From Candidatus Dojkabacteria bacterium (lineage in GTDB: Bacteria; Patescibacteriota; Dojkabacteria; SC72; JAFGCJ01), in assembly GCA_016932785.1 (NCBI GenBank), contig JAFGCJ010000002.1, positions 273,777 through 337,776 on the forward strand: a stretch of DNA of 64,000 nt, given 5' to 3'. Below, piece after piece: positions 30,675-41,838 of the stretch. The position numbers and the translations under genes are program-made. The stretch's first letter is position 1. Each line of letters opens with the position of its first letter. A model generated the notes under the pieces. It did no database searches. It was not told the origin of the DNA and saw only the letters and a program-made list of their open reading frames with translations.

Positions 30675-33446
30675 CTAAAAGGTTGATGTTGCAATAAAGG
30701 TAAGTTGGTCAGTATAGGTCCCAGTCCCATCTTCTATATCGGGACTTGCTCCAATTGCCCACTGCACACGTCCTCCCTGAACTGGATTACCATTCGTGTT
30801 AAGAATTTCTACCGGAGCAGATTGAGGAAGATCACAATAATAATCATCGCCTGAAGTACAGTCACAGTCACCGTGTATATTTAGGAACCCAGAAGTTGCA
30901 GTACTAACAAATCCACTGGGATGGTTAAGACCGTAATATCCACTTCCAGTTCCAGTAATCTGATACTCTGACCCCGAAGGAACGCTTGGGATTTCATTGC
31001 TAGCATCCTTATACAAAGCCTGGTTAGCACTGATAACGGTGACCACTCCTCCAGAGTCAGCATTTGTCTCAATATCCATCCAGATAGAATTTACGGTACC
31101 CGTAAGACCGTCGGCATGAAGTATACCGGTATCACCAGAGTTCCGAACCTCAGTTATAAGCATCTCACCAAGATCTACCACATAACCGGCATCATCACTT
31201 GCCCCGCTGTGGCTATCACAGGGACTGGTACCACCGGCAGCATCACAATCTACATCCGTAGTCGCCGTATCAATATCAAAACTTAATACCGTATCCACAT
31301 ACCCCGTTACATTGACAGTGTCATCATCAATGATAGGAACGGAAAGTTCACCGAAATCGATGTCCGTGCCATTATCAAGAGTTATCTGAGTATCATACTC
31401 TCCTACGTTATCAGGATTAATAATCAGAGTATCACCTTGACTCGGAGTATCTGTGTTTGTACCTATTTTAATGTGAACAACACTATTGGAAGCAATCTCT
31501 GTTGCACCCGCATCCGTAGGAGCCGTAAAAGTAATTACGTCATTTGTAGAATCAATATTTACCCCCCAAACTCCACTTCCTGCACTTGCCGCCAAGGTTT
31601 TATCTGCCCCATCATCCTCAAGATCGATATCGTCTATACCAATACCATTAAAATCAAAGTCATTTGTACCATCAGTAGTAGTTTGATTCGGAACAAAATC
31701 AACAGTTATAGTATCTCCAGATGAATTTATGGCATAAGTAGTTGTAAACTGAATATCATGATTCGACGCAGTGCTAACCTGCAACCTTGTCATAGTATCT
31801 TTTATCCCGACAAGACTAAACGCCCCTGTACCAGTAAGACCCGACACCTTCCAGTACTCCACCCCACCATCCATGACGACCTCAACGTTGGGATTTAGCT
31901 CATCCACATAGAACAAACCTTCACAATCAGGACCAACATCCTCAACCGATTGAGCATTAGGACAAATAGCCACTTGATCCCCTAAACCTTTTCTTACATA
32001 TAATGAATACGATCCTCCGCGAGAACCAGGCAGATCAGAAAAGCCTCCCGGATAGTGGAAAAACGCCTTTCCTTCACCAACGCCTGCATCCAACTCCTCC
32101 CAATTTAGATCCTCATCTACAAACTCCACGTCAAACTCCGCCACTCTAAGGTCACCTTCCTTAACACCTATTTCTACATCTCCAAGTTGCGGGTTCTCCC
32201 CTACATCCACAATCCACGAATCTGTTCTAACAGCATCAAGATTTTCAGCCAAGTTTATTACCTTGAAATGCTGCTCACAGTGAGTTGCATAGTCACAAGT
32301 ACCAGAGCCATCACACCCAGCCTGACACAAGAAGCTCCCGCCACGAGCATAATTATCATCACCATATGCAATGCTGAATGAATAAGTATCATTACACACA
32401 TTTTCGGCCTCACACTGACCACTGGAACATGCCGTGCCCGGTGGACAATTCCTCCAATCAAGTTCACCAGTCGGAAAGCTACAACTACCATCAGCTGCGC
32501 ATCTCATAACTTCTCTTCCCTGCTGACACAAAGAATCATTACACATACTAAATTCTCCATAATTGCAACTCAGGACATTATCCGTCCCACAGTTATCTGT
32601 GAGCGTATATCCTTCTTCCGCAACAACCTGCTGAAGATACGAATCCGTCTGATCGTCAGAGCTACGGCAGGAACCTGAACCATCACAAGATGTGAACCAC
32701 TGTGTACCAGTACAATTACCGGACACACAGGTTTCTCCGTAATAACAGTAGTACTCAGGGGAAACCTCAGATACAACTCCATTACCGGTACATGTTGAAC
32801 CAGATGGTATACTCTCTACATAGTCATTGGTATCACAAGATCCGTTCCCATCGCAATATCCATCTCCCCGTTTTCTTTGACACTGTCCATTGCAGCTCCA
32901 CGAAGTATATTGACACTCACTATCCGGATCGTGATTATCGTTAACATTATGACAAATTCCAGCCGTTCCATCATATGCATCGCACCGCTGACACGTTCCC
33001 GAGCAAGAAATATTACAACAGAAACCGTCGACACAATATCCTGAAGTGCATTCACTTGAATTAGAGCATGACTGTCCGTTATTCTTTGTAGAATCTGTCT
33101 CCGGAGAATGATATATCGTAGTACCTGGTGAACCTACTCGAACGACATCCTCCTGATCATCTGTCTGATCGTCTGAGGTTGAAACTCCTTTTACTCCTCC
33201 TGATGCACCATTTTCATCTTCATCACTAGAACGAGAAAATTGCGTTTCCTCTGACTTATCGAGGATATCATCATCTTCATCTTTAGAAGAAATAGGATCA
33301 AAAAGATAGATCCACAGCCAGAGAAGCAATAACAACATAATCATTATCTTCATACTGGTTTTAAGAACATCGCTATCAAGCCATGGAAATCTATTTTTCA
33401 ATTTCCATTTAATATTTCTTGCTTTTAGTCTTAATCTCGTAAACAT
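30675..33446 (-). CDS. large secreted Cys-rich surface protein (ORFan)
   Basis: 923 aa. N-terminal TM (IMIMLLLLLWLWIYLF), an acidic linker, about 300 aa of Cys-rich repeats (e.g. CSNSSECTSGYCVDGFCCNISCSGTCQRC), then a Thr/Asp/Gly-rich beta-type region. Confidence 0.65.
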   Translation of the reverse strand: MFTRLRLKARNIKWKLKNRFPWLDSDVLKTSMKIMIMLLLLLWLWIYLFDPISSKDEDDDILDKSEETQFSRSSDEDENGASGGVKGVSTSDDQTDDQEDVVRVGSPGTTIYHSPETDSTKNNGQSCSNSSECTSGYCVDGFCCNISCSGTCQRCDAYDGTAGICHNVNDNHDPDSECQYTSWSCNGQCQRKRGDGYCDGNGSCDTNDYVESIPSGSTCTGNGVVSEVSPEYYCYYGETCVSGNCTGTQWFTSCDGSGSCRSSDDQTDSYLQQVVAEEGYTLTDNCGTDNVLSCNYGEFSMCNDSLCQQGREVMRCAADGSCSFPTGELDWRNCPPGTACSSGQCEAENVCNDTYSFSIAYGDDNYARGGSFLCQAGCDGSGTCDYATHCEQHFKVINLAENLDAVRTDSWIVDVGENPQLGDVEIGVKEGDLRVAEFDVEFVDEDLNWEELDAGVGEGKAFFHYPGGFSDLPGSRGGSYSLYVRKGLGDQVAICPNAQSVEDVGPDCEGLFYVDELNPNVEVVMDGGVEYWKVSGLTGTGAFSLVGIKDTMTRLQVSTASNHDIQFTTTYAINSSGDTITVDFVPNQTTTDGTNDFDFNGIGIDDIDLEDDGADKTLAASAGSGVWGVNIDSTNDVITFTAPTDAGATEIASNSVVHIKIGTNTDTPSQGDTLIINPDNVGEYDTQITLDNGTDIDFGELSVPIIDDDTVNVTGYVDTVLSFDIDTATTDVDCDAAGGTSPCDSHSGASDDAGYVVDLGEMLITEVRNSGDTGILHADGLTGTVNSIWMDIETNADSGGVVTVISANQALYKDASNEIPSVPSGSEYQITGTGSGYYGLNHPSGFVSTATSGFLNIHGDCDCTSGDDYYCDLPQSAPVEILNTNGNPVQGGRVQWAIGASPDIEDGTGTYTDQLTFIATSTF

Positions 33447-33726
33447 CCCTACTCTTCTAGTAATAAGAGAAGTAAATGCCCGAATAAAGAAAAACTAACC
33501 CTTGGAAATGGGCAGATCATAGCCAGAATTACTGACTTAACTAACATTCAGGCAGTTTAATTAAACTGAGTTATGAGCCTAATATCAATCTATAGGAATT
33601 TCCATCCAAAGTCAACCCTGCAAAACCCCAGATATGCCTATAACAATGCGAAATATTGCGTAGGAACATAGTTCGAGTAGAAACATCATCAACTTTGAGC
33701 TATAATTACAACAATTTAATAGAAAA

Positions 33727-33938
33727 ATGCTTTGACGGAGAGGAATGGGCTCCTGAGCAGCAAGGCGAAAAGTAAGTAGCCGAGACGTAGTTCCTGCGTA
33801 AAAGGATACCCTGATGTTGATTCCACAAAGTCAGGACAAAGGCAAAATCAGCGATGATTTTGCAAAAAGGGGTGGCACCACGATAAACTCGTCCCCAAAC
33901 AAATGGATCTTTAGGATTCATCTGTTTGGGGATTTTTT
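33727..33938 (+). promoter_or_regulatory. T-box riboswitch leader (Trp specifier) with intrinsic terminator, upstream of trpS
   Basis: UUGACGGAG-AGGAAUGGG-CUCCUGAGC carries UGG at 33746-33748. Stem III is GCAAAATCA/TGATTTTGC. The T-box core AAAAAGGGGUGGCACCACG lies at 33864-33882. The antiterminator is GGGG / bulge UGGCACC / ACGA-UCGU / CCCC. The competing terminator CCCCAAACA..TGTTTGGGG plus U6 lies at 33893-33938. A TATAAT is present at 33701-33706. Confidence 0.85.
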
Positions 33939-33961: not shown

Positions 33962-35476
33962 ATGAACAACCACAAAAAAATCAAAAACAAACTAGACAAA
34001 CTTGGATTTAAGTACCAGACTATTGACCTTGCCACAGAGTCTTTGGATCTCGACGAACAGGTCCGCGCAGGGAATCTTAAATACAGCGAATGTGTTGGAA
34101 CACTTCTAATCAAAGACCAACGGGGTAATTACTATGCTTTCCTTAGAAGAGACGACAGAAAAATGGATGCCGAAAAGGTGAAAACGATTATTGGAAGCGA
34201 CTCATTTGATTTCTGTGATGACAAAGACCTTGAAAAAATAGGATTCGAATCAGGACTTCTTTCTCCAGTACTACTAAACGACGGCAAAAAACCAATCAAA
34301 GTATTTGTAGATCAAAATATCAAAAAGATGAAAGTCGTTAACTGTGGACCGGCAATTCCCGGTGCAACCCTCCGTCTCGATAAAGACGATCTCCTCAAGG
34401 CAGTTGGAGAATATGAATTTATAGATTTTACACAGCCTAACCCCCAGAGATCTGATGATCTTTTCTCCTCTGATAAGGTTGTTTACACCGCTGATACCCC
34501 AACAGGTCAGATGCATATCGGACATTACGTTGGAACACTAGAAAATCGGGTTAAGCTCCAAGATAGATTCAACTGTTTTTTCGGACTTGCCAACTATCAC
34601 TCATTTTCATATATGCAAAAAGGTGAGGGCCTCTATAAGAATCCAGATTTTATTCACGAAGTGACTCTACAGGTTGCCATGGATAATCTAGCGGTAGGAA
34701 TAAACCCCGAAAAGTGTACCTACTATATCGAATCAGATGTTCCTGAGACATGTGAACTTGCAATGCTCTTCAGCATGCTGGTATCACACAACCGCGCCCT
34801 AAGAAATCCGACCATTAAGGACGAAATTAAACTAAAAGGCATGGGAAATCAGTTCTCACTTGGATTCATCAACTATCCAATGCTCCAAGCAGCGGATATC
34901 CTTATATTTAAAGCCGAATTAATTCCTGTCGGCAAAGACCAGTTGCCCCATATTGAGCAATCGAGAGAAATAGCCCGAGACTTTAACGAGCTATATGGTG
35001 AGACATTCCCAATTCCAGAGGGTCTTGTAGGAAAGGTCGGAATGCTTCCAGGACTTGATAACAAAAAAATGAGCAAAAGTCTCGGAAATGCTATCGTATT
35101 CACTGATTCCGACGAAGAAATCAAAAAGAAAATAATGAGCATGTACACCGATCCTAACAGGATACATCCGACTGATCCTGGCAAGGTAAAAGACAACCCC
35201 GTATTTATATACCATGAAGCTTTCAATCCAGATAAGGAAGAAATTGAAGATTTGAAGGAACGCTATGAAACCGGAAAAGTCGGCGATGTGGAGGTAAAGG
35301 AGAAACTGGCAAATGCTATGATTAATTTCATCGCTCCAATTCGAGAAAGAAGAAAGAAATACGAGGATAATCCTGACCTTCTAAGAGAAATTCTATCAGA
35401 AGGCGGCAAAAAAGCTAGAAAAGAAGCAAAGAAAACCATGTCCGAAGTCAGAGAAAAGATGAAACTGGACTTCTAG
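33962..35476 (+). CDS. trpS: tryptophan--tRNA ligase with N-terminal YbaK/ProX-like (tRNA_edit-type) domain
   Basis: Residues ~1-165 follow the YbaK pattern (..CVGTLLIKD..YYAFLRRDDRKMD..GFESGLLSPVLL..VNCGPAIPGATLRL). The class Ic core has TPTGQMHIGHYVG (HIGH), PMLQAADIL, GKDQLPHIEQSREIARDFN and KKMSKS. The upstream T-box has a UGG specifier. Confidence 0.85.
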   Translation: MNNHKKIKNKLDKLGFKYQTIDLATESLDLDEQVRAGNLKYSECVGTLLIKDQRGNYYAFLRRDDRKMDAEKVKTIIGSDSFDFCDDKDLEKIGFESGLLSPVLLNDGKKPIKVFVDQNIKKMKVVNCGPAIPGATLRLDKDDLLKAVGEYEFIDFTQPNPQRSDDLFSSDKVVYTADTPTGQMHIGHYVGTLENRVKLQDRFNCFFGLANYHSFSYMQKGEGLYKNPDFIHEVTLQVAMDNLAVGINPEKCTYYIESDVPETCELAMLFSMLVSHNRALRNPTIKDEIKLKGMGNQFSLGFINYPMLQAADILIFKAELIPVGKDQLPHIEQSREIARDFNELYGETFPIPEGLVGKVGMLPGLDNKKMSKSLGNAIVFTDSDEEIKKKIMSMYTDPNRIHPTDPGKVKDNPVFIYHEAFNPDKEEIEDLKERYETGKVGDVEVKEKLANAMINFIAPIRERRKKYEDNPDLLREILSEGGKKARKEAKKTMSEVREKMKLDF

Positions 35477-38236: not shown

Positions 38237-38503
38237 ACAAAAAACTCGCCTATACACACCAGTCTTACTGGTATGCAAAGACGAGCTTTCTCGTGTTACC
38301 ACTTTGCTTTGATTTAACGTTACCGCTAAACCCTCTCTAACTGACTCCATAACTTACGTGAATCAGTGTCCCATTTATTTGCTTCGGTCGGGCTTCCGAA
38401 AAAAGTTGGTGCTGCTATGCAGCTTTTCCTCTTTCACTCCCAGGCGGGTTCGCTCAATCTCTCAACTTCGCTACTATTCCTGTTCACAGTGAGCTATTCA
38501 ATT
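38237..38503 (-). promoter_or_regulatory. T-box riboswitch leader (Pro specifier) with intrinsic terminator, upstream of proS
   Basis: Read on the minus strand: AAUAGUA..GAA-CCC-G specifier region (CCC = 38448-38446). The T-box core is CAAAGCAAAGUGGUAACACGAG (38312-38291). The antiterminator is GCAAAG / bulge UGGUAAC / ACGAG-AAAG-CUCGU / CUUUGC (38307-38275). The terminator is CUCGUCUUUGCAUACC..GGUGUGUAUAGGCGAG plus U6 (38286-38239). Confidence 0.8.
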
Positions 38504-39281: not shown

Positions 39282-40907
39282 CTATCTCATTAGGTTCTCC
39301 AGACGTGTAATCAAATCCGCCATACTCTTAGGTTCAAAATGCCTTCTGGCGGGTTCCAAAATCTTTACTACTGCTTCAGATACAGCTGTCTTTAGATCCA
39401 ACGGATGAAGCTTGCCTTCCTCAAACAGATTAAACATTTCCTGCTCAGATTCAAAATTGATATCTCCTCCATGTTTCTTTTCTCTTTTGACCTCTAGCTT
39501 TCCTAAAATAGGAAAAACCAAGTGCTTCGCCCAATCTAAAACGGGATTAAACTCAATCTCCCTTTCAGGACAGAAAGCTCCATTTATCTTCCTTCGTATC
39601 TCATCGACACTGTCATGGATAAACACACACGTATCAGGCTTAGATTTACTCATTTTCATCTCTGACCAAAGTTCTCTAAGCCTTGCCTTATCCTTAATCG
39701 GCCAAACTGGCGGCTTACCAAGACCAAGAATTAGGTGGTGATGAATTGCAACAGGCTTTATCTTATTCTTGCTTTCGTCCAATAATGGAGAGACCTCGAG
39801 TTTTTCAGCAACTTCGCGAGCTATAACATGTGCCTTCCTCTGATCCATACCCCCATGAGCAATATTTACACCAATATTAAAAATATCATTAACCTGCATC
39901 GGCGGATATACAAGCCAGGCAAAGCATTGATTCTCTCCCTCACGCCTACCCATAATCGTGGAACTCTTTACTACACGAGCCAGAGTCAGATTCTTGGAGA
40001 CATCAATAAACGATTGCCAGTACTTATCATTATTGTGATAAAACTCAGATCCAAGGATAAAATTCACTTTCAACGGATCAGCCCCGGCACACTTCAACGA
40101 TGCAATTAATGCTTCCTTAAAATATCCCACTGCAACTTCAGTTATCGTCTCAAGATCTCCATTTAGCTTTCCATTTATCCAGGCATGCCAATCTGCAAGC
40201 AAGATATTGCACTCAACACCGGCCTTGAGTAGATCCTTGATTTTAAGAGCAGTCATAAGTCCGCTCCCAATATGGAGTTTACCGGAAATTTCAAAACCAA
40301 TATAATGGCGAAGCTTAGTTTCTCCAACTATCAGCGATTCCAGATCCTTCTCCGTAAGACACTCTTCAAGATTTCCCGTTATTAAACTTTTCTTCTTTTC
40401 TTGGCTGAGAGAAAGACTCATCTCTATTTTCTCCTTATTACTTAATTTATCGGCCAATTGGGTCACTCTAACATTATGCAATTTACTCAGTGCTTCTTCA
40501 ACACTAAGGTTTATACCCTTAGCCAAATCCCCGGCTCCCATACTCCATCTATCCATATCCGCGGCTTCTTTATCAACCAATATTGGGATGTCAAGCAGGA
40601 AAGGATTTAAACACCCTGGCCGAAACTTAAAATTTTCCGCTAATGCTTGTTCGTCCAGAATATCCCATTTCCCGATGTTTTTCCTCAGAAGCTTCTGATC
40701 AATGCGTTGATCCCCCTTAAGCAGAACAGCAAAAAAGCCCTCAGATGTTTTCACAACTAAAGTCTTTATTGCAATTTGCGGATCATAATTCTTGTCCACT
40801 GAAGAATCGACCTTTCGAGCAGATATGGCCCTATCCGTAAAAGTAATTTCTTCAAAGTTCAGTCCTATTTTCTTCAATTTTCTGGCAACAGAATCAAATG
40901 TATGCAT
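39282..40907 (-). CDS. tyrS: tyrosine--tRNA ligase, archaeal/eukaryotic type, with N-terminal YbaK/ProX-like domain
   Basis: The core closely parallels M. jannaschii TyrRS from memory: HYIGFEISGKLHIGSG, LLADWHAWIN, YPPMQVNDIFNIGVNIAHGGMDQRKAHVIARE, KMSKSKPDTCVFIHDS and HGGDINFESEQEMFNLFEEGKLHPLDLKTAVSEAVVKILEPARR. The N-terminal ~160 aa follow the YbaK pattern (..IAIKTLVVK..FFAVLLKGDQRID..FRPGCLNPFLL..SMGAGDLAKGINLS). Confidence 0.88.
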   Translation of the reverse strand: MHTFDSVARKLKKIGLNFEEITFTDRAISARKVDSSVDKNYDPQIAIKTLVVKTSEGFFAVLLKGDQRIDQKLLRKNIGKWDILDEQALAENFKFRPGCLNPFLLDIPILVDKEAADMDRWSMGAGDLAKGINLSVEEALSKLHNVRVTQLADKLSNKEKIEMSLSLSQEKKKSLITGNLEECLTEKDLESLIVGETKLRHYIGFEISGKLHIGSGLMTALKIKDLLKAGVECNILLADWHAWINGKLNGDLETITEVAVGYFKEALIASLKCAGADPLKVNFILGSEFYHNNDKYWQSFIDVSKNLTLARVVKSSTIMGRREGENQCFAWLVYPPMQVNDIFNIGVNIAHGGMDQRKAHVIAREVAEKLEVSPLLDESKNKIKPVAIHHHLILGLGKPPVWPIKDKARLRELWSEMKMSKSKPDTCVFIHDSVDEIRRKINGAFCPEREIEFNPVLDWAKHLVFPILGKLEVKREKKHGGDINFESEQEMFNLFEEGKLHPLDLKTAVSEAVVKILEPARRHFEPKSMADLITRLENLMR

Positions 40908-40931: not shown

Positions 40932-41014
40932 TCCAGGGGGCAGGATTCGAACCTGCGAAGCCTTTCAGCGTTGGATTTACAGTCCAATGCATTTGACCAC
41001 TCTGCCACCCCTGG
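40932..41014 (-). tRNA. tRNA-Tyr (anticodon GUA), class II with long variable arm, no encoded CCA
   Basis: Minus strand: CCAGGGG-UG-GCA(GAGUGGUCAAA)UGC-A-UUGGA(CUGUAAA)UCCAA-CGCUGAAAGGCUUC-GCAGG(UUCGAAU)CCUGC-CCCCUGG-A. It has a 7-bp acceptor stem, the T-loop consensus and discriminator A. It ends 24 nt upstream of the tyrS ATG. Confidence 0.92.
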
Positions 41015-41018
41015 TATG

Positions 41019-41045
41019 ATGCCTGGCTTCGGCGATGCCTGACAT
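41019..41045. repeat. REP-derived remnant (two direct copies of the REP right arm) abutting the tRNA-Tyr 5' end
   Basis: ATGCCTGgcttcggcgATGCCTGACAT. The second copy matches the right arm of the REP at 46138-46150 except for one base. Confidence 0.55.
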
Positions 41046-41376
41046 ATATAATCGAGACATAGCTCACAACCACTGGCCTTTACTTCATGAAGATGGAGGA
41101 AAAGGGTAAAACCCAAATGGCTGTGAGCTTTTTTATTGGAAGTAGACCTGGATCAAACGAGTGCCAAAGGCTAGCCTCTTTCCAGGTCTTTGGAGATCAC
41201 AATATTTGTTTAGCACAAGAGTGCTAACTAGTTGTAATCACCGCGATACACTACTATCACCTCCTCTATAAAGAACAGCGGTTATTTTAGGCCTTAATTC
41301 CAGATAATACTCCTGGTCGGCCACCGCTCAATAAATCCGTACAAAATTAACTTTTCATTAAGCGAAAGCCCACCGG

Positions 41377-41400
41377 TGCCAGGCATAGCCTATGCCAGCA
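41377..41400. repeat. REP-like palindrome (degenerate copy, opposite orientation)
   Basis: TGCCAGGCATAG-C-CTATGCCAGCA has the same core as the REPs flanking the RAYT gene. It carries one A.A mismatch at the variable arm position. Confidence 0.65.
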
Positions 41401-41475
41401 TATTCAATTCTGCGTCCATTCGGCATAACACAAATCTGCTCTTTAAGTATTTTTTGCTTTTAGCAGCGGTTTTGC

Positions 41476-41838
41476 CAAATAAAAACGCCTTTACACAAAC
41501 CCGATCAGCTCGATCAGATTTATGCAAAGGCGTTCAGTAAACGCGGTACCACTTTGCTTTAGTCTATTGTCTTTTAACAATAAAAAAACACCACGGCGGG
41601 TGTTCGAAGTCAAGACAATAAACTCTTGTCCGGAGTGCTCTGACTTCTTTGCCGACACACTCTTTTCGCTGTCACGGGCGAAACCCGTCAATCTTTTAAC
41701 TGTAATAGTACAGTTTTTTGAGATGAAGCTCAGGAGGGTAATTCTGAAGTTTACTTGCGAAAGCCTTGCTCCAACCGGCTTTTCTCATTTGCCACAGAAA
41801 ACTTCTTACTATTTCTCCGTCAACGCTTTTAAATGAAC
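41476..41838 (-). promoter_or_regulatory. T-box riboswitch leader (Tyr specifier, full-length Stem I) with intrinsic terminator
   Basis: Read on the minus strand: GCGUUGACGGAG-AAAUAGUA-[GAAGUUU..distal..AAACUUC]-AGAAU-UAC-C-CUCCUGAGC (UAC = 41740-41738). The T-box core is AAAGCAAAGUGGUACCGCG (41560-41541). The antiterminator is GCAAAG / bulge UGGUACC / GCGUU-UACUG-AACGC / CUUUGC (41557-41524). The terminator is AACGCCUUUGCA..UGUAAAGGCGUU plus UUUUUAUUU (41534-41476). Confidence 0.85.

What the first reader, a model, noticed from the sequence alone, without database searches (positions are those of the whole stretch)
33727..33938. Trp T-box with an apparently ultrashort Stem I yet a transcription terminator
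The K-turn-like elements UUGACGGAG / CUCCUGAGC are shared with the Tyr leader. In the Tyr leader they enclose AAAUAGUA, a ~60-nt distal stem and AGAAUUACC. In the Trp leader they enclose only a 9-nt loop, AGGAAUGGG, carrying UGG. The tRNA-elbow-binding distal platform therefore seems to be missing. As I recall, this is known for actinobacterial ileS 'ultrashort' T-boxes that act on translation. This leader instead has a clear antiterminator/terminator switch (GGGG-UGGCACC-ACGA..UCGU-CCCC versus CCCCAAACA..TGTTTGGGG plus U6). The Pro leader also has only ~20 nt above its specifier loop.
Basis: partly seen in the sequence, partly recalled or inferred. Interest (0 to 1): 0.6.

Follow-up and report, generated by a model that had tools for sequence, protein, structure and literature searches.

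The report
Terminator-type Trp T-box lacking elbow platform
A tRNA-sensing RNA switch in front of the tryptophanyl-tRNA synthetase gene of an uncultured CPR bacterium (Dojkabacteria) has lost the arm that normally grips the tRNA elbow but still ends in a transcription terminator, a pairing that current reviews treat as not viable and that is conserved with compensatory mutations in five related genomes.

Summary
Window 33723-33938 (+) is a T-box leader (Rfam RF00230, 59 bits, E 1e-12, below the 93-bit gathering score). The covariance model deletes 72 Stem I positions. What remains is a K-turn, a 4-bp helix (GGAG/CUCC) and a 9-nt apical loop, AGGAAUGGG, carrying UGG. The downstream gene is TrpRS, fused to a YbaK-type editing domain.

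The organism is a Candidatus Dojkabacteria (WS6, Patescibacteria). Five homologous leaders, whose TrpRS is 77-48% identical, share the design. Compensatory changes occur in Stem I, Stem II, Stem IIA, the IIA/B pseudoknot, antiterminator helix A2 and the 20-bp terminator. Each terminator is worth -25 to -34 kcal/mol and is followed by a U-tract. A 19-57 nt AU-rich spacer without a Shine-Dalgarno sequence follows.

The T-box bulge UGGN tracks the tRNA-Trp discriminator: UGGU with A73 in the same loci, and UGGC in the clade whose tRNA-Trp has G73.

The decoding module therefore resembles the actinobacterial ultrashort (class III) T-boxes, while the expression platform is a classical intrinsic terminator. 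Reviews held here (2020-2024) tie short Stem I to translational control and call the elbow platform essential for transcriptional T-boxes. I rate it a new variant of a known kind. Function is inferred, not tested.

The parts
33678..33706 (+). Sigma-70-like promoter (TAGAAA, 17-nt spacer, TATAAT). The -10 box lies 22 nt before Stem I, so the transcript has no room for extra upstream structure.
   Evidence: 10 of 12 matches. A UAUAAU box sits in the same place in all five homologous leaders.
33729..33758 (+). Ultrashort Stem I: 2-bp base (GC/GC), K-turn-like GA motif (UUUGAC / UGA), 4-bp helix GGAG/CUCC and a 9-nt apical specifier loop AGGAAUGGG.
   Evidence: The Rfam model deletes 72 Stem I positions here. 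Helix pairs covary (G-C to C-G, A-U to G-C) and are 100% paired in six sequences. The leave-one-out model scores 56 bits.
33746..33749 (+). Specifier UGG (Trp codon, 33746-33748) followed by a conserved purine G (33749) and preceded by GAA (33743-33745).
   Evidence: UGGG is invariant in all six leaders. The downstream gene is TrpRS. The tRNA-Trp genes in related loci have anticodon CCA.
33760..33785 (+). Stem II, with the invariant S-turn signature GAA (33767-33769) and AGUA (33775-33778).
   Evidence: Rfam alignment. Four lower-helix pairs all show changes on both sides. GAA and AGUA are invariant columns.
33786..33806 (+). Stem IIA (CGUA/UGCG) and the IIA/B pseudoknot (loop UCC pairing with downstream GGA).
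   Evidence: IIA covaries. The pseudoknot has six different complementary pairs in six leaders: UCC/GGA, CCC/GGG, UUUUC/GAAAG, GAAC/GUUC, GAGU/ACUC, AAAC/GUUU.
33810..33835 (+). Linker hairpin (CCUGAU ... GUCAGG) between the pseudoknot and Stem III. It is absent from the Rfam consensus and its role is unknown.
   Evidence: Present with covarying arms in all six Trp leaders and in the window's Pro leader. The Rfam model treats it as an insertion.
33842..33863 (+). Stem III (GCAAAAUCA / UGAUUUUGC with a GCGA loop), preceded by purines AAAG and followed by AAAAA.
   Evidence: A Stem III hairpin folds at this position in all six leaders.
33869..33896 (+). Antiterminator with the T-box sequence: helix A1 GGGG/CCCC, 7-nt bulge UGGCACC (UGGC at 33873-33876 would pair with G73-CCA of tRNA-Trp), helix A2 ACGA/UCGU.
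   Evidence: The N of UGGN covaries with the tRNA-Trp discriminator base.
33891..33938 (+). Intrinsic terminator: hairpin GUCCCCAAACA...UGUUUGGGGAU (-25.3 kcal/mol) plus a U-tract. Its 5' arm overlaps the 3' strand of the antiterminator.
   Evidence: The 20-bp consensus helix has 10 pairs changed on both sides, 95% of cells paired, and 0 of 500 shuffles reach the observed covariation.
33962..35476 (+). Regulated gene: TrpRS (class I, PF00579, residues 173-456) fused to an N-terminal YbaK-type editing domain (PF04073, residues 34-146).
   Evidence: It starts 23 nt after the U-tract, and no Shine-Dalgarno sequence lies in the spacer.

Best explanation
This is a tRNA-Trp-sensing T-box transcription attenuator controlling trpS in a Dojkabacterium (CPR). 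Its Stem I has been reduced to a K-turn, a 4-bp helix and an apical specifier loop.

Proposed mechanism:
1. Transcription starts about 15 nt upstream of Stem I.
2. The anticodon CCA of tRNA-Trp pairs with UGG in the loop.
3. With no distal double-T-loop platform there is no contact to the tRNA elbow. The codon-anticodon helix is instead held by the Stem II S-turn, positioned by the K-turn and the IIA/B pseudoknot, as in actinobacterial class III T-boxes.
4. If the tRNA is uncharged, its G73-CCA end pairs with UGGC in the T-box bulge and stabilises the weak antiterminator (about -7 kcal/mol). RNA polymerase then reads through into trpS.
5. If the tRNA is charged or absent, the much stronger terminator (-25 kcal/mol plus U-tract) forms and transcription stops 23 nt before the start codon.

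Shown here by computation: the architecture, its conservation and covariation, the match between specifier and gene, the covariation between bulge and discriminator base, the mutually exclusive antiterminator and terminator, and the absence of a sequestrable Shine-Dalgarno sequence.

Inferred: tRNA binding, compensation by Stem II, and the transcriptional read-out.
For: - Family identity: RF00230 aligns full length with Stem I deleted. The same deletion appears in homologous leaders L157, L159 and L163 and in L167 and L172.
- Unbiased fold: RNAalifold recovers the short Stem I, Stem II, Stem IIA and the terminator.
- Antiterminator-state structure: 97.6% of cells paired, against 36-46% when partners are slid. 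Nine pairs change on both sides, and 0 of 500 shuffles reach the observed covariation.
- Terminator: 95% paired, ten pairs changed on both sides.
- Pseudoknot: six different complementary sequence pairs.
- Ligand identity: UGG-G is invariant and the downstream gene is TrpRS. The bulge reads UGGU in L163, L167 and L172, whose own tRNA-Trp genes have A73. It reads UGGC in the clade whose tRNA-Trp genes have G73 (L160-L162).
- Terminators: -25 to -34 kcal/mol with U-tracts, against antiterminators of -6.6 to -8.1. AU-rich spacers of 19-57 nt without a Shine-Dalgarno sequence follow.
- The window's Tyr and Pro T-boxes use the same terminator style, and another hairpin plus U-tract terminator lies nearby.
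- The leave-one-out model scores 56 bits, E 8e-14.
Against: - There is no experimental evidence for tRNA binding or antitermination.
- Published work holds that disabling the elbow platform cripples transcriptional T-boxes, because tRNA must bind before the polymerase reaches the terminator. A leader without it might therefore respond poorly, or need a compensating element that I did not identify.
- Only six leaders from two clades were available, so several of the double changes may be single inherited events.
- For the window's own clade, the G73 tRNA-Trp is seen only in sister genomes, not in the window.
- The score is below Rfam's gathering threshold (59 against 93 bits).
- Close relatives (L158, L160, L162, L170) lack the T-box altogether, so it is dispensable in this lineage.
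Confidence: 0.78

Rival explanations
1. The leader is a working transcriptional T-box, but the elbow contact is not really lost. Another element supplies it or replaces its kinetic role. Candidates are the conserved linker hairpin (33810-33835), the Stem II distal extensions seen in relatives, a protein, or polymerase pausing.
For: The linker hairpin is conserved with covarying arms in all six Trp leaders and in the Pro leader, and it is absent from the Rfam consensus. L157, L159 and L163 carry 20-27 nt insertions on top of Stem II. The literature argues that a kinetic aid is needed for co-transcriptional sensing.
Against: The hairpin loop sequence is not conserved, whereas an elbow-docking platform would be expected to be. 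I did not find a clear equivalent of the hairpin in the Tyr leader, which keeps its platform, so I could not settle whether the hairpin tracks loss of the platform. The window's own Stem II has no distal extension. No double-T-loop motif was recognised anywhere else in the leader.
Confidence: 0.15
2. The 3' hairpin does not act as a terminator but controls translation or mRNA stability, making this a class III-like sequestrator as in Actinobacteria.
For: Every ultrashort Stem I T-box described so far is translational. The 3' arm contains GGGGA, which weakly resembles a Shine-Dalgarno sequence.
Against: The hairpin is followed directly by a conserved run of 4-6 U. It ends 19-57 nt before the start codon. 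No Shine-Dalgarno sequence lies within 15 nt of any of the six start codons, so neither the start codon nor a ribosome-binding site is inside the hairpin. The Tyr and Pro leaders of the same genome use the same hairpin plus U-tract design.
Confidence: 0.05
3. The leader is a decaying, non-responsive relic of a canonical T-box after a Stem I deletion. It acts only as a constitutive partial terminator, or not at all.
For: Sister genomes have lost the T-box entirely (L158, L160, L162, L170). The score is below the Rfam threshold.
Against: The same reduced design persists in lineages whose TrpRS is only 48-50% identical to the window's. Compensatory changes occur in every helix, the UGG-G specifier is invariant, and the bulge tracks the tRNA discriminator base. 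This is a pattern of purifying selection on tRNA recognition.
Confidence: 0.04

Closest known systems
Class I transcriptional T-box (for example Bacillus subtilis tyrS; Rfam RF00230)
   Same: K-turn at the base of Stem I; Stem II with the S-turn signature; IIA/B pseudoknot; Stem III; T-box sequence with a 7-nt UGGNACC bulge; mutually exclusive antiterminator and intrinsic terminator; control of an aminoacyl-tRNA synthetase gene; GAA-codon-purine context of the specifier.
   Different: Everything distal to the specifier is missing, including the AG bulge and distal loop that form the interdigitated double-T-loop elbow platform. The specifier sits in an apical loop instead of an internal loop. 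An extra linker hairpin precedes Stem III. The leader scores 59 bits, below the 93-bit family threshold.
Class III ultrashort T-box (ileS of Mycobacterium tuberculosis, M. smegmatis and Nocardia farcinica; Sherwood, Grundy and Henkin 2015, as cited in PMC7583486 and PMC10482949)
   Same: Short Stem I without the elbow platform; specifier in an apical loop; the Stem II domain and pseudoknot are retained and are presumably required.
   Different: The expression platform here is an intrinsic terminator with a U-tract, not a Shine-Dalgarno sequestrator. The specificity is Trp (trpS), not Ile (ileS). The host is a CPR bacterium, not an actinobacterium. The loop is 8-9 nt and keeps GAA-UGG-G, against the 5-6 nt described for class III. 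The origin is probably independent, since the K-turn and helix are identical to those of the canonical Tyr leader in the same genome.
Class IV intermediate Stem I T-box (for example Actinomyces odontolyticus ileS)
   Same: No elbow platform. The window's Pro leader resembles this class: its specifier sits in an internal loop capped by only 20 nt.
   Different: The Trp leader has no helix above the specifier at all. Class IV examples are described as translational, whereas both the Pro and Trp leaders here end in terminators.
Class II glyQS T-box
   Same: Both are naturally reduced transcriptional T-boxes, which shows the family tolerates loss of a whole domain.
   Different: glyQS loses Stem II and the pseudoknot but keeps the long Stem I with its platform. 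This leader does the reverse.

Membership tests
T-box leader (RF00230), in general | T-box sequence forming a 7-nt bulge (UGGN...) in an antiterminator helix | tested here: met
   AGGGGUGGCACCACG at 33868-33882. The Rfam alignment and the fold place the bulge as expected, and it is conserved in six leaders.
T-box leader (RF00230), in general | Specifier codon that matches the amino acid of the regulated gene | tested here: met
   UGG at 33746-33748 is invariant in six leaders. The downstream gene is TrpRS.
T-box leader (RF00230), in general | The N of UGGN is complementary to the discriminator base of the cognate tRNA | tested here: met
   UGGU occurs with A73 tRNA-Trp in the same loci (L163, L167, L172). 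UGGC occurs in the clade with G73 tRNA-Trp (L160-L162). This is indirect for the window itself, because its tRNA-Trp gene is not in the window.
T-box leader (RF00230), in general | Score at or above Rfam's gathering threshold | tested here: not met
   59.3 bits against 93. The shortfall comes from the 72 deleted Stem I positions.
T-box leader (RF00230), in general | Direct, charge-sensitive binding of the cognate tRNA | not testable with these tools
   This requires binding and antitermination assays.
Class I (canonical transcriptional) T-box | Long Stem I with an AG bulge and distal loop forming the tRNA-elbow platform | tested here: not met
   The covariance model leaves 5 nt in place of 72 positions. 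The same is true in five homologs. The leave-one-out model of the short form matches at 56 bits.
Class I (canonical transcriptional) T-box | Intrinsic terminator that competes with the antiterminator | tested here: met
   Hairpin at 33891-33933 plus U-tract, overlapping the antiterminator's 3' strand. It covaries in six leaders.
Class I (canonical transcriptional) T-box | Stem II S-turn and IIA/B pseudoknot | tested here: met
   GAA and AGUA are invariant. Stem II and IIA covary. The pseudoknot has six complementary variants. The three-dimensional S-turn itself was not testable.
Class III (ultrashort, translational) T-box | Short Stem I without the platform, with the specifier in an apical loop | tested here: met
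   4-bp helix plus an 8-9 nt loop carrying UGG. The loop is larger than the 5-6 nt quoted for class III.
Class III (ultrashort, translational) T-box | Shine-Dalgarno sequestrator / anti-sequestrator expression platform | tested here: not met
   There is no Shine-Dalgarno sequence in or near the hairpin. The hairpin is followed by a U-tract and ends 19-57 nt before the start codon in all six leaders.
Class III (ultrashort, translational) T-box | Found upstream of ileS in Actinobacteria | tested here: not met
   The gene is trpS and the organism is Candidatus Dojkabacteria, a member of Patescibacteria.

The most novel reading that the evidence does not exclude
Dojkabacteria carry a natural T-box that senses tRNA during transcription without any contact to the tRNA elbow. 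It arose independently of the actinobacterial ultrashort class, by deletion of distal Stem I from a canonical leader. One 8-kb stretch of this genome holds a graded series that all end in terminators: Tyr with a full platform, Pro with a 20-nt cap, and Trp with nothing above the specifier. That would show the elbow platform is not a general requirement for transcriptional T-boxes. It would also provide a natural system to test the kinetic argument that links Stem I length to the mode of regulation.
Probability: 0.55. Interest if true: 0.7.

Novelty: new variant of a known kind. Interest (0 to 1): 0.62.

Why it matters
Current models of the T-box mechanism tie Stem I length to the level of control. 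The elbow-binding platform is said to be essential for transcriptional T-boxes, because it speeds tRNA capture before the polymerase reaches the terminator. It is said to be dispensable only in translational ones, which have no time limit (PMC7583486, section 6.2).

A conserved, covarying leader that combines an ultrashort Stem I with a strong intrinsic terminator is a natural counter-example. Either elbow-independent capture is fast enough in these organisms, or an unrecognised element or slow transcription compensates.

The three leaders in this window offer matched constructs for that test. The finding also shows that CPR bacteria use T-boxes that standard Rfam thresholds miss: all three leaders here score below the gathering cut-off. 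T-box censuses therefore probably undercount this group.

Tried and rejected
- Locus scans with the fused TrpRS in genome contigs and metagenome contigs returned only TrpRS cores at 50% identity or less, mostly from Firmicutes, Melainabacteria and other Patescibacteria. A T-box core regex found no leader upstream of trpS in any of those 156 loci, so they gave no comparative data.
- Relatives came instead from the protein database plus contig look-ups. L158, L164 and L174 have no recognisable leader, and L161 is cut at the contig end.
- Older key papers (Vitreschak 2008, Sherwood 2015, Kreuzer and Henkin 2018) are not held. I therefore could not rule out that one of them mentions a short Stem I T-box with a terminator.
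- A full decoding-module alignment for a covariance model (A2) was unusable because of variable Stem II insertions. I restricted the model to the Stem I module (A3, R1).
- The single-sequence minimum-free-energy fold pairs GCUUUG with CAAGGC. I rejected this because the pairing is not kept in the homologs.
- Other reading frames for the specifier (AUG, GGG, AAU) were rejected, because the gene is TrpRS and the bulge tracks the tRNA-Trp discriminator base.
- The C. glutamicum his 'T-box-like' element was considered as a precedent for a short transcriptional T-box. The authors themselves doubt that it is a T-box: it lacks Stems II and III and has a poorly conserved T-box sequence.

Full report
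**1. The observation**

No T-box in the window reaches Rfam's gathering score of 93 bits. In E-value mode RF00230 matches three places:
- 33723-33899 on the plus strand (59.3 bits, E 1.4e-12 locally and 2.2e-10 window-wide);
- 38274-38496 on the minus strand (55.9 bits);
- 41523-41832 on the minus strand (88.9 bits).

For the first match the model aligns from position 1 to 219 but replaces 72 Stem I positions with 5 nt. What is left is:
- a 2-bp base (G33729-C33758, C33730-G33757);
- the K-turn strands UUUGAC and UGA;
- a 4-bp helix, GGAG (33737-33740) with CUCC (33750-33753);
- a 9-nt loop, AGGAAUGGG (33741-33749).

The Tyr leader shares UUGACGGAG / CUCCUGAGC and encloses 61 nt between AAAUAGUA and AGAAUUACC. 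The Pro leader has exactly 20 nt above its specifier loop.

**2. Context and organism**

The downstream ORF 33962-35476 encodes a 504-aa protein with an N-terminal tRNA_edit (YbaK-type, PF04073) domain and a class I Trp/Tyr synthetase core (PF00579). A 100% identical entry is annotated as tryptophan--tRNA ligase of Candidatus Dojkabacteria (WS6, Patescibacteria/CPR). Full-length fused homologs exist at 77-45% identity.

A promoter-like site (TAGAAA, 17-nt spacer, TATAAT, 33678-33706) ends 22 nt before Stem I. All homologous leaders have UAUAAU in the same place. The transcript therefore has no room for extra upstream structure.

**3. Homologous leaders**

Locus scans of the genome and metagenome collections gave only distant TrpRS genes without T-boxes. 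Contig look-ups for Dojkabacterial homologs yielded five further leaders:
- L157 (TrpRS 77% identical to the window's);
- L159 (72%);
- L163 (50%);
- L167 (49%);
- L172 (48%).

Rfam aligns L157, L159 and L163 with the same Stem I deletion, leaving 4-7 nt in place of 72-74 positions. L167 and L172 have the same layout.

The Stem I helices are GGAG/CUCC (three leaders), CGGG/UCCG, GGGG/CCCC and CGGG/CCCG. The loops are AGGAAUGGG, AGGUAUGGG or AGAAUGGG, always ending in UGG-G.

**4. Structure support**

RNAalifold on the six-sequence alignment A1 independently predicts the short Stem I, the Stem II lower helix, Stem IIA and a 20-bp terminator. Of 38 predicted pairs, 19 show changes on both sides.

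For the antiterminator-state structure that I specified, 97.6% of cells pair, against 36-46% when the 3' partners are slid by 1-3 columns. Nine pairs change on both sides, and 0 of 500 shuffles reach the observed covariation. For the terminator, 95% of cells pair, against 30-44% when slid, with ten pairs changed on both sides.

Three helices could not be kept in register by MAFFT, so I checked them sequence by sequence:
- The IIA/B pseudoknot is complementary in all six leaders, with six different sequences: UCC/GGA, CCC/GGG, UUUUC/GAAAG, GAAC/GUUC, GAGU/ACUC and AAAC/GUUU.
- A linker hairpin between the pseudoknot and Stem III is present in all six with covarying arms. In the window it is at 33810-33835.
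- Stem III folds in all six.

The S-turn signature of Stem II (GAA ... AGUA) is invariant.

A covariance model of the Stem I module built only from the five non-window leaders finds 33723-33770 at 56 bits, E 7.9e-14. The next hit in 64 kb scores 14 bits.

One caveat applies to all of this. Six sequences in two clades mean that some of the double changes are shared by descent.

**5. Ligand identity**

The specifier is UGG and the gene is TrpRS.

tRNA-Trp (CCA) genes lie next to trpS in several loci. In L163, L167 and L172 the tRNA has A73, and the T-box bulge of the same locus reads UGGU. In L160, L161 and L162, the clade to which the window belongs, the tRNA has G73, and that clade's T-boxes (window, L157, L159) read UGGC.

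This is the known covariation between UGGN and the discriminator base in T-boxes. It argues that the acceptor-end interaction is under selection. The window itself contains only a tRNA-Tyr gene, so for the window this link is indirect.

**6. Expression platform**

In all six leaders the antiterminator has helix A1 GGGG/CCCC, the 7-nt bulge UGGNACC and helix A2 ACGN/NCGU. It is worth only -6.6 to -8.1 kcal/mol.

The competing hairpin begins inside the antiterminator's 3' strand (GUCCCC...) and is worth -25 to -34 kcal/mol. It is followed directly by 4-6 U. The start codon comes after a further 19-57 nt of AU-rich sequence with no Shine-Dalgarno motif.

This is the anatomy of an intrinsic terminator, not of a ribosome-binding-site sequestrator. 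The Tyr and Pro leaders of the window end in the same way, and other hairpin plus U-tract sites occur nearby.

**7. Mechanism**

The best-supported reading is a tRNA-Trp-dependent transcription antitermination switch. Its decoding module works like that of the class III ultrashort T-boxes: anticodon pairing with an apical-loop specifier, held by the Stem II S-turn and positioned by the K-turn and pseudoknot, with no elbow contact. Its discriminator and terminator work like those of canonical class I T-boxes.

The architecture and its evolutionary constraint are shown here. Binding, charge sensing and termination are inferred.

The loop keeps GAA-UGG-G, the 3' half of a canonical specifier loop (compare GAA-CCC-G in the Pro leader). 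The K-turn and helix are identical to those of the Tyr leader in the same genome. Both points suggest that the short form arose by deletion of distal Stem I within this lineage, independently of the actinobacterial class. This too is inference.

**8. Comparison with what is known**

- The 2020 review states that transcriptional T-boxes generally require a long Stem I with the interdigitated double-T-loop motif, that this motif is essential in them, and that intermediate and ultrashort Stem I are features of translational T-boxes (PMC7583486).
- The four-class scheme places short Stem I with an apical 5-6 nt specifier loop in class III, exemplified by ileS of Nocardia (PMC10482949).
- A 2024 paper repeats that translational T-boxes have the shorter Stem I (PMC11297988).
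- TBDB routes sequences with truncated Stem I to its translational model (PMC7778990).
- Translational T-boxes were first noted upstream of actinobacterial ileS (PMC1262725).
- Full-text searches for T-box together with Patescibacteria, Dojkabacteria or Candidate Phyla Radiation found nothing.

I could not read Vitreschak 2008 or Sherwood 2015, so an earlier passing mention of a short Stem I leader with a terminator cannot be excluded.

On this basis the leader is a T-box by mechanism and homology. It fails one defining feature of class I (the platform) and one of class III (the sequestrator). I rate it a new variant of a known kind.

**9. Rivals**

- A compensating element for the lost elbow contact remains possible (0.15). 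The candidates are the linker hairpin, Stem II extensions, a protein, or polymerase pausing. The hairpin loop is not conserved, and the window's Stem II has no extension.
- Translational or stability control (0.05) is contradicted by the U-tract and by the absence of a Shine-Dalgarno sequence.
- A decayed relic (0.04) is contradicted by covariation in every helix and by the tracking between bulge and discriminator base.

**10. Verdict**

Interest is 0.62. This is a specialist-level surprise that makes the kinetic rationale for Stem I length directly testable with three natural constructs from one locus.

Noticed in passing
L160 1232-1282; L162 760-807; L170 1391-1447: Sister Dojkabacteria have no T-box before trpS. 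Instead a short ORF rich in Trp codons starts only 7-9 nt after a UAUAAU box, so its mRNA is probably leaderless. The peptides are MMIKKINIVTFFWWSL*, MTGKKYTKVSSWWKL* and MQKYQCNKNVISSNFFWA*. In L170 a hairpin plus U6 (GGGCUUAAGCCC...UUUUUU) overlaps the UGG and stop codons. In L160 and L162 the ORF is followed by a conserved CUCUAA(A)CAAUUUAGGG(G)CUG, then a tRNA-Trp gene, then trpS. This looks like ribosome-mediated (leader-peptide) Trp attenuation that has replaced the T-box.
   Followed up: partly
window 33962-35476 (+) and 39282-40907 (-): Both TrpRS and TyrRS carry an N-terminal YbaK/ProX-type tRNA_edit domain (PF04073), which is unusual for class Ic synthetases. The TrpRS fusion is widespread in Dojkabacteria, while some relatives (P0008-P0023) have an unfused enzyme. 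NCBI annotates the window's TrpRS from an internal Met (382 aa) and so misses the domain.
   Followed up: partly
window 40932-41832 (-): The canonical Tyr T-box (41523-41832) is followed by its terminator, a 471-nt spacer, a tRNA-Tyr gene (40932-41014) and then tyrS (39282-40907). The T-box may therefore control its own ligand's gene together with the synthetase. tRNA-Trp genes likewise sit next to trpS in L160-L163, L167 and L172.
   Followed up: partly
window 41015-41485 (-): The 471-nt spacer between the Tyr T-box terminator and the tRNA-Tyr gene has no convincing ORF (the largest that does not overlap the tRNA is 54 aa). It folds far better than shuffled controls (-166 kcal/mol, z = -6.9) and has no Rfam match at E below 1. 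It may be an unclassified structured RNA.
   Followed up: partly
window 38274-38496 (-): The Pro T-box upstream of ProRS has a CCC specifier in an internal loop capped by only 20 nt (GCGAAGUUGAGAGAUUGAGC), with no AG bulge or distal-loop platform. It still has a terminator plus U6 and a 12/12 consensus promoter. It is a second platform-less transcriptional T-box in the same genome.
   Followed up: partly
L163 3107-3183; L167 3104-3177; L172 3105-3181: The tRNA-Trp genes of one Dojkabacterial clade carry A73, the archaeal/eukaryotic-type discriminator base (from my own knowledge), instead of the usual bacterial G73. Some of these genes encode the CCA end and some do not.
   Followed up: no
window 33810-33835 (+); also 38340-38367 (-) in the Pro leader: A conserved hairpin (NNNGAU ... 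GUCNNN) lies between the IIA/B pseudoknot and Stem III in Dojkabacterial T-boxes. It is not part of the Rfam consensus and its role is unknown.
   Followed up: partly
window 30675-33446 (-): A 923-aa protein with an N-terminal hydrophobic segment and many Cys-rich repeats (CxxxxC patterns) is encoded divergently just upstream of the Trp leader. It was not characterised.
   Followed up: no
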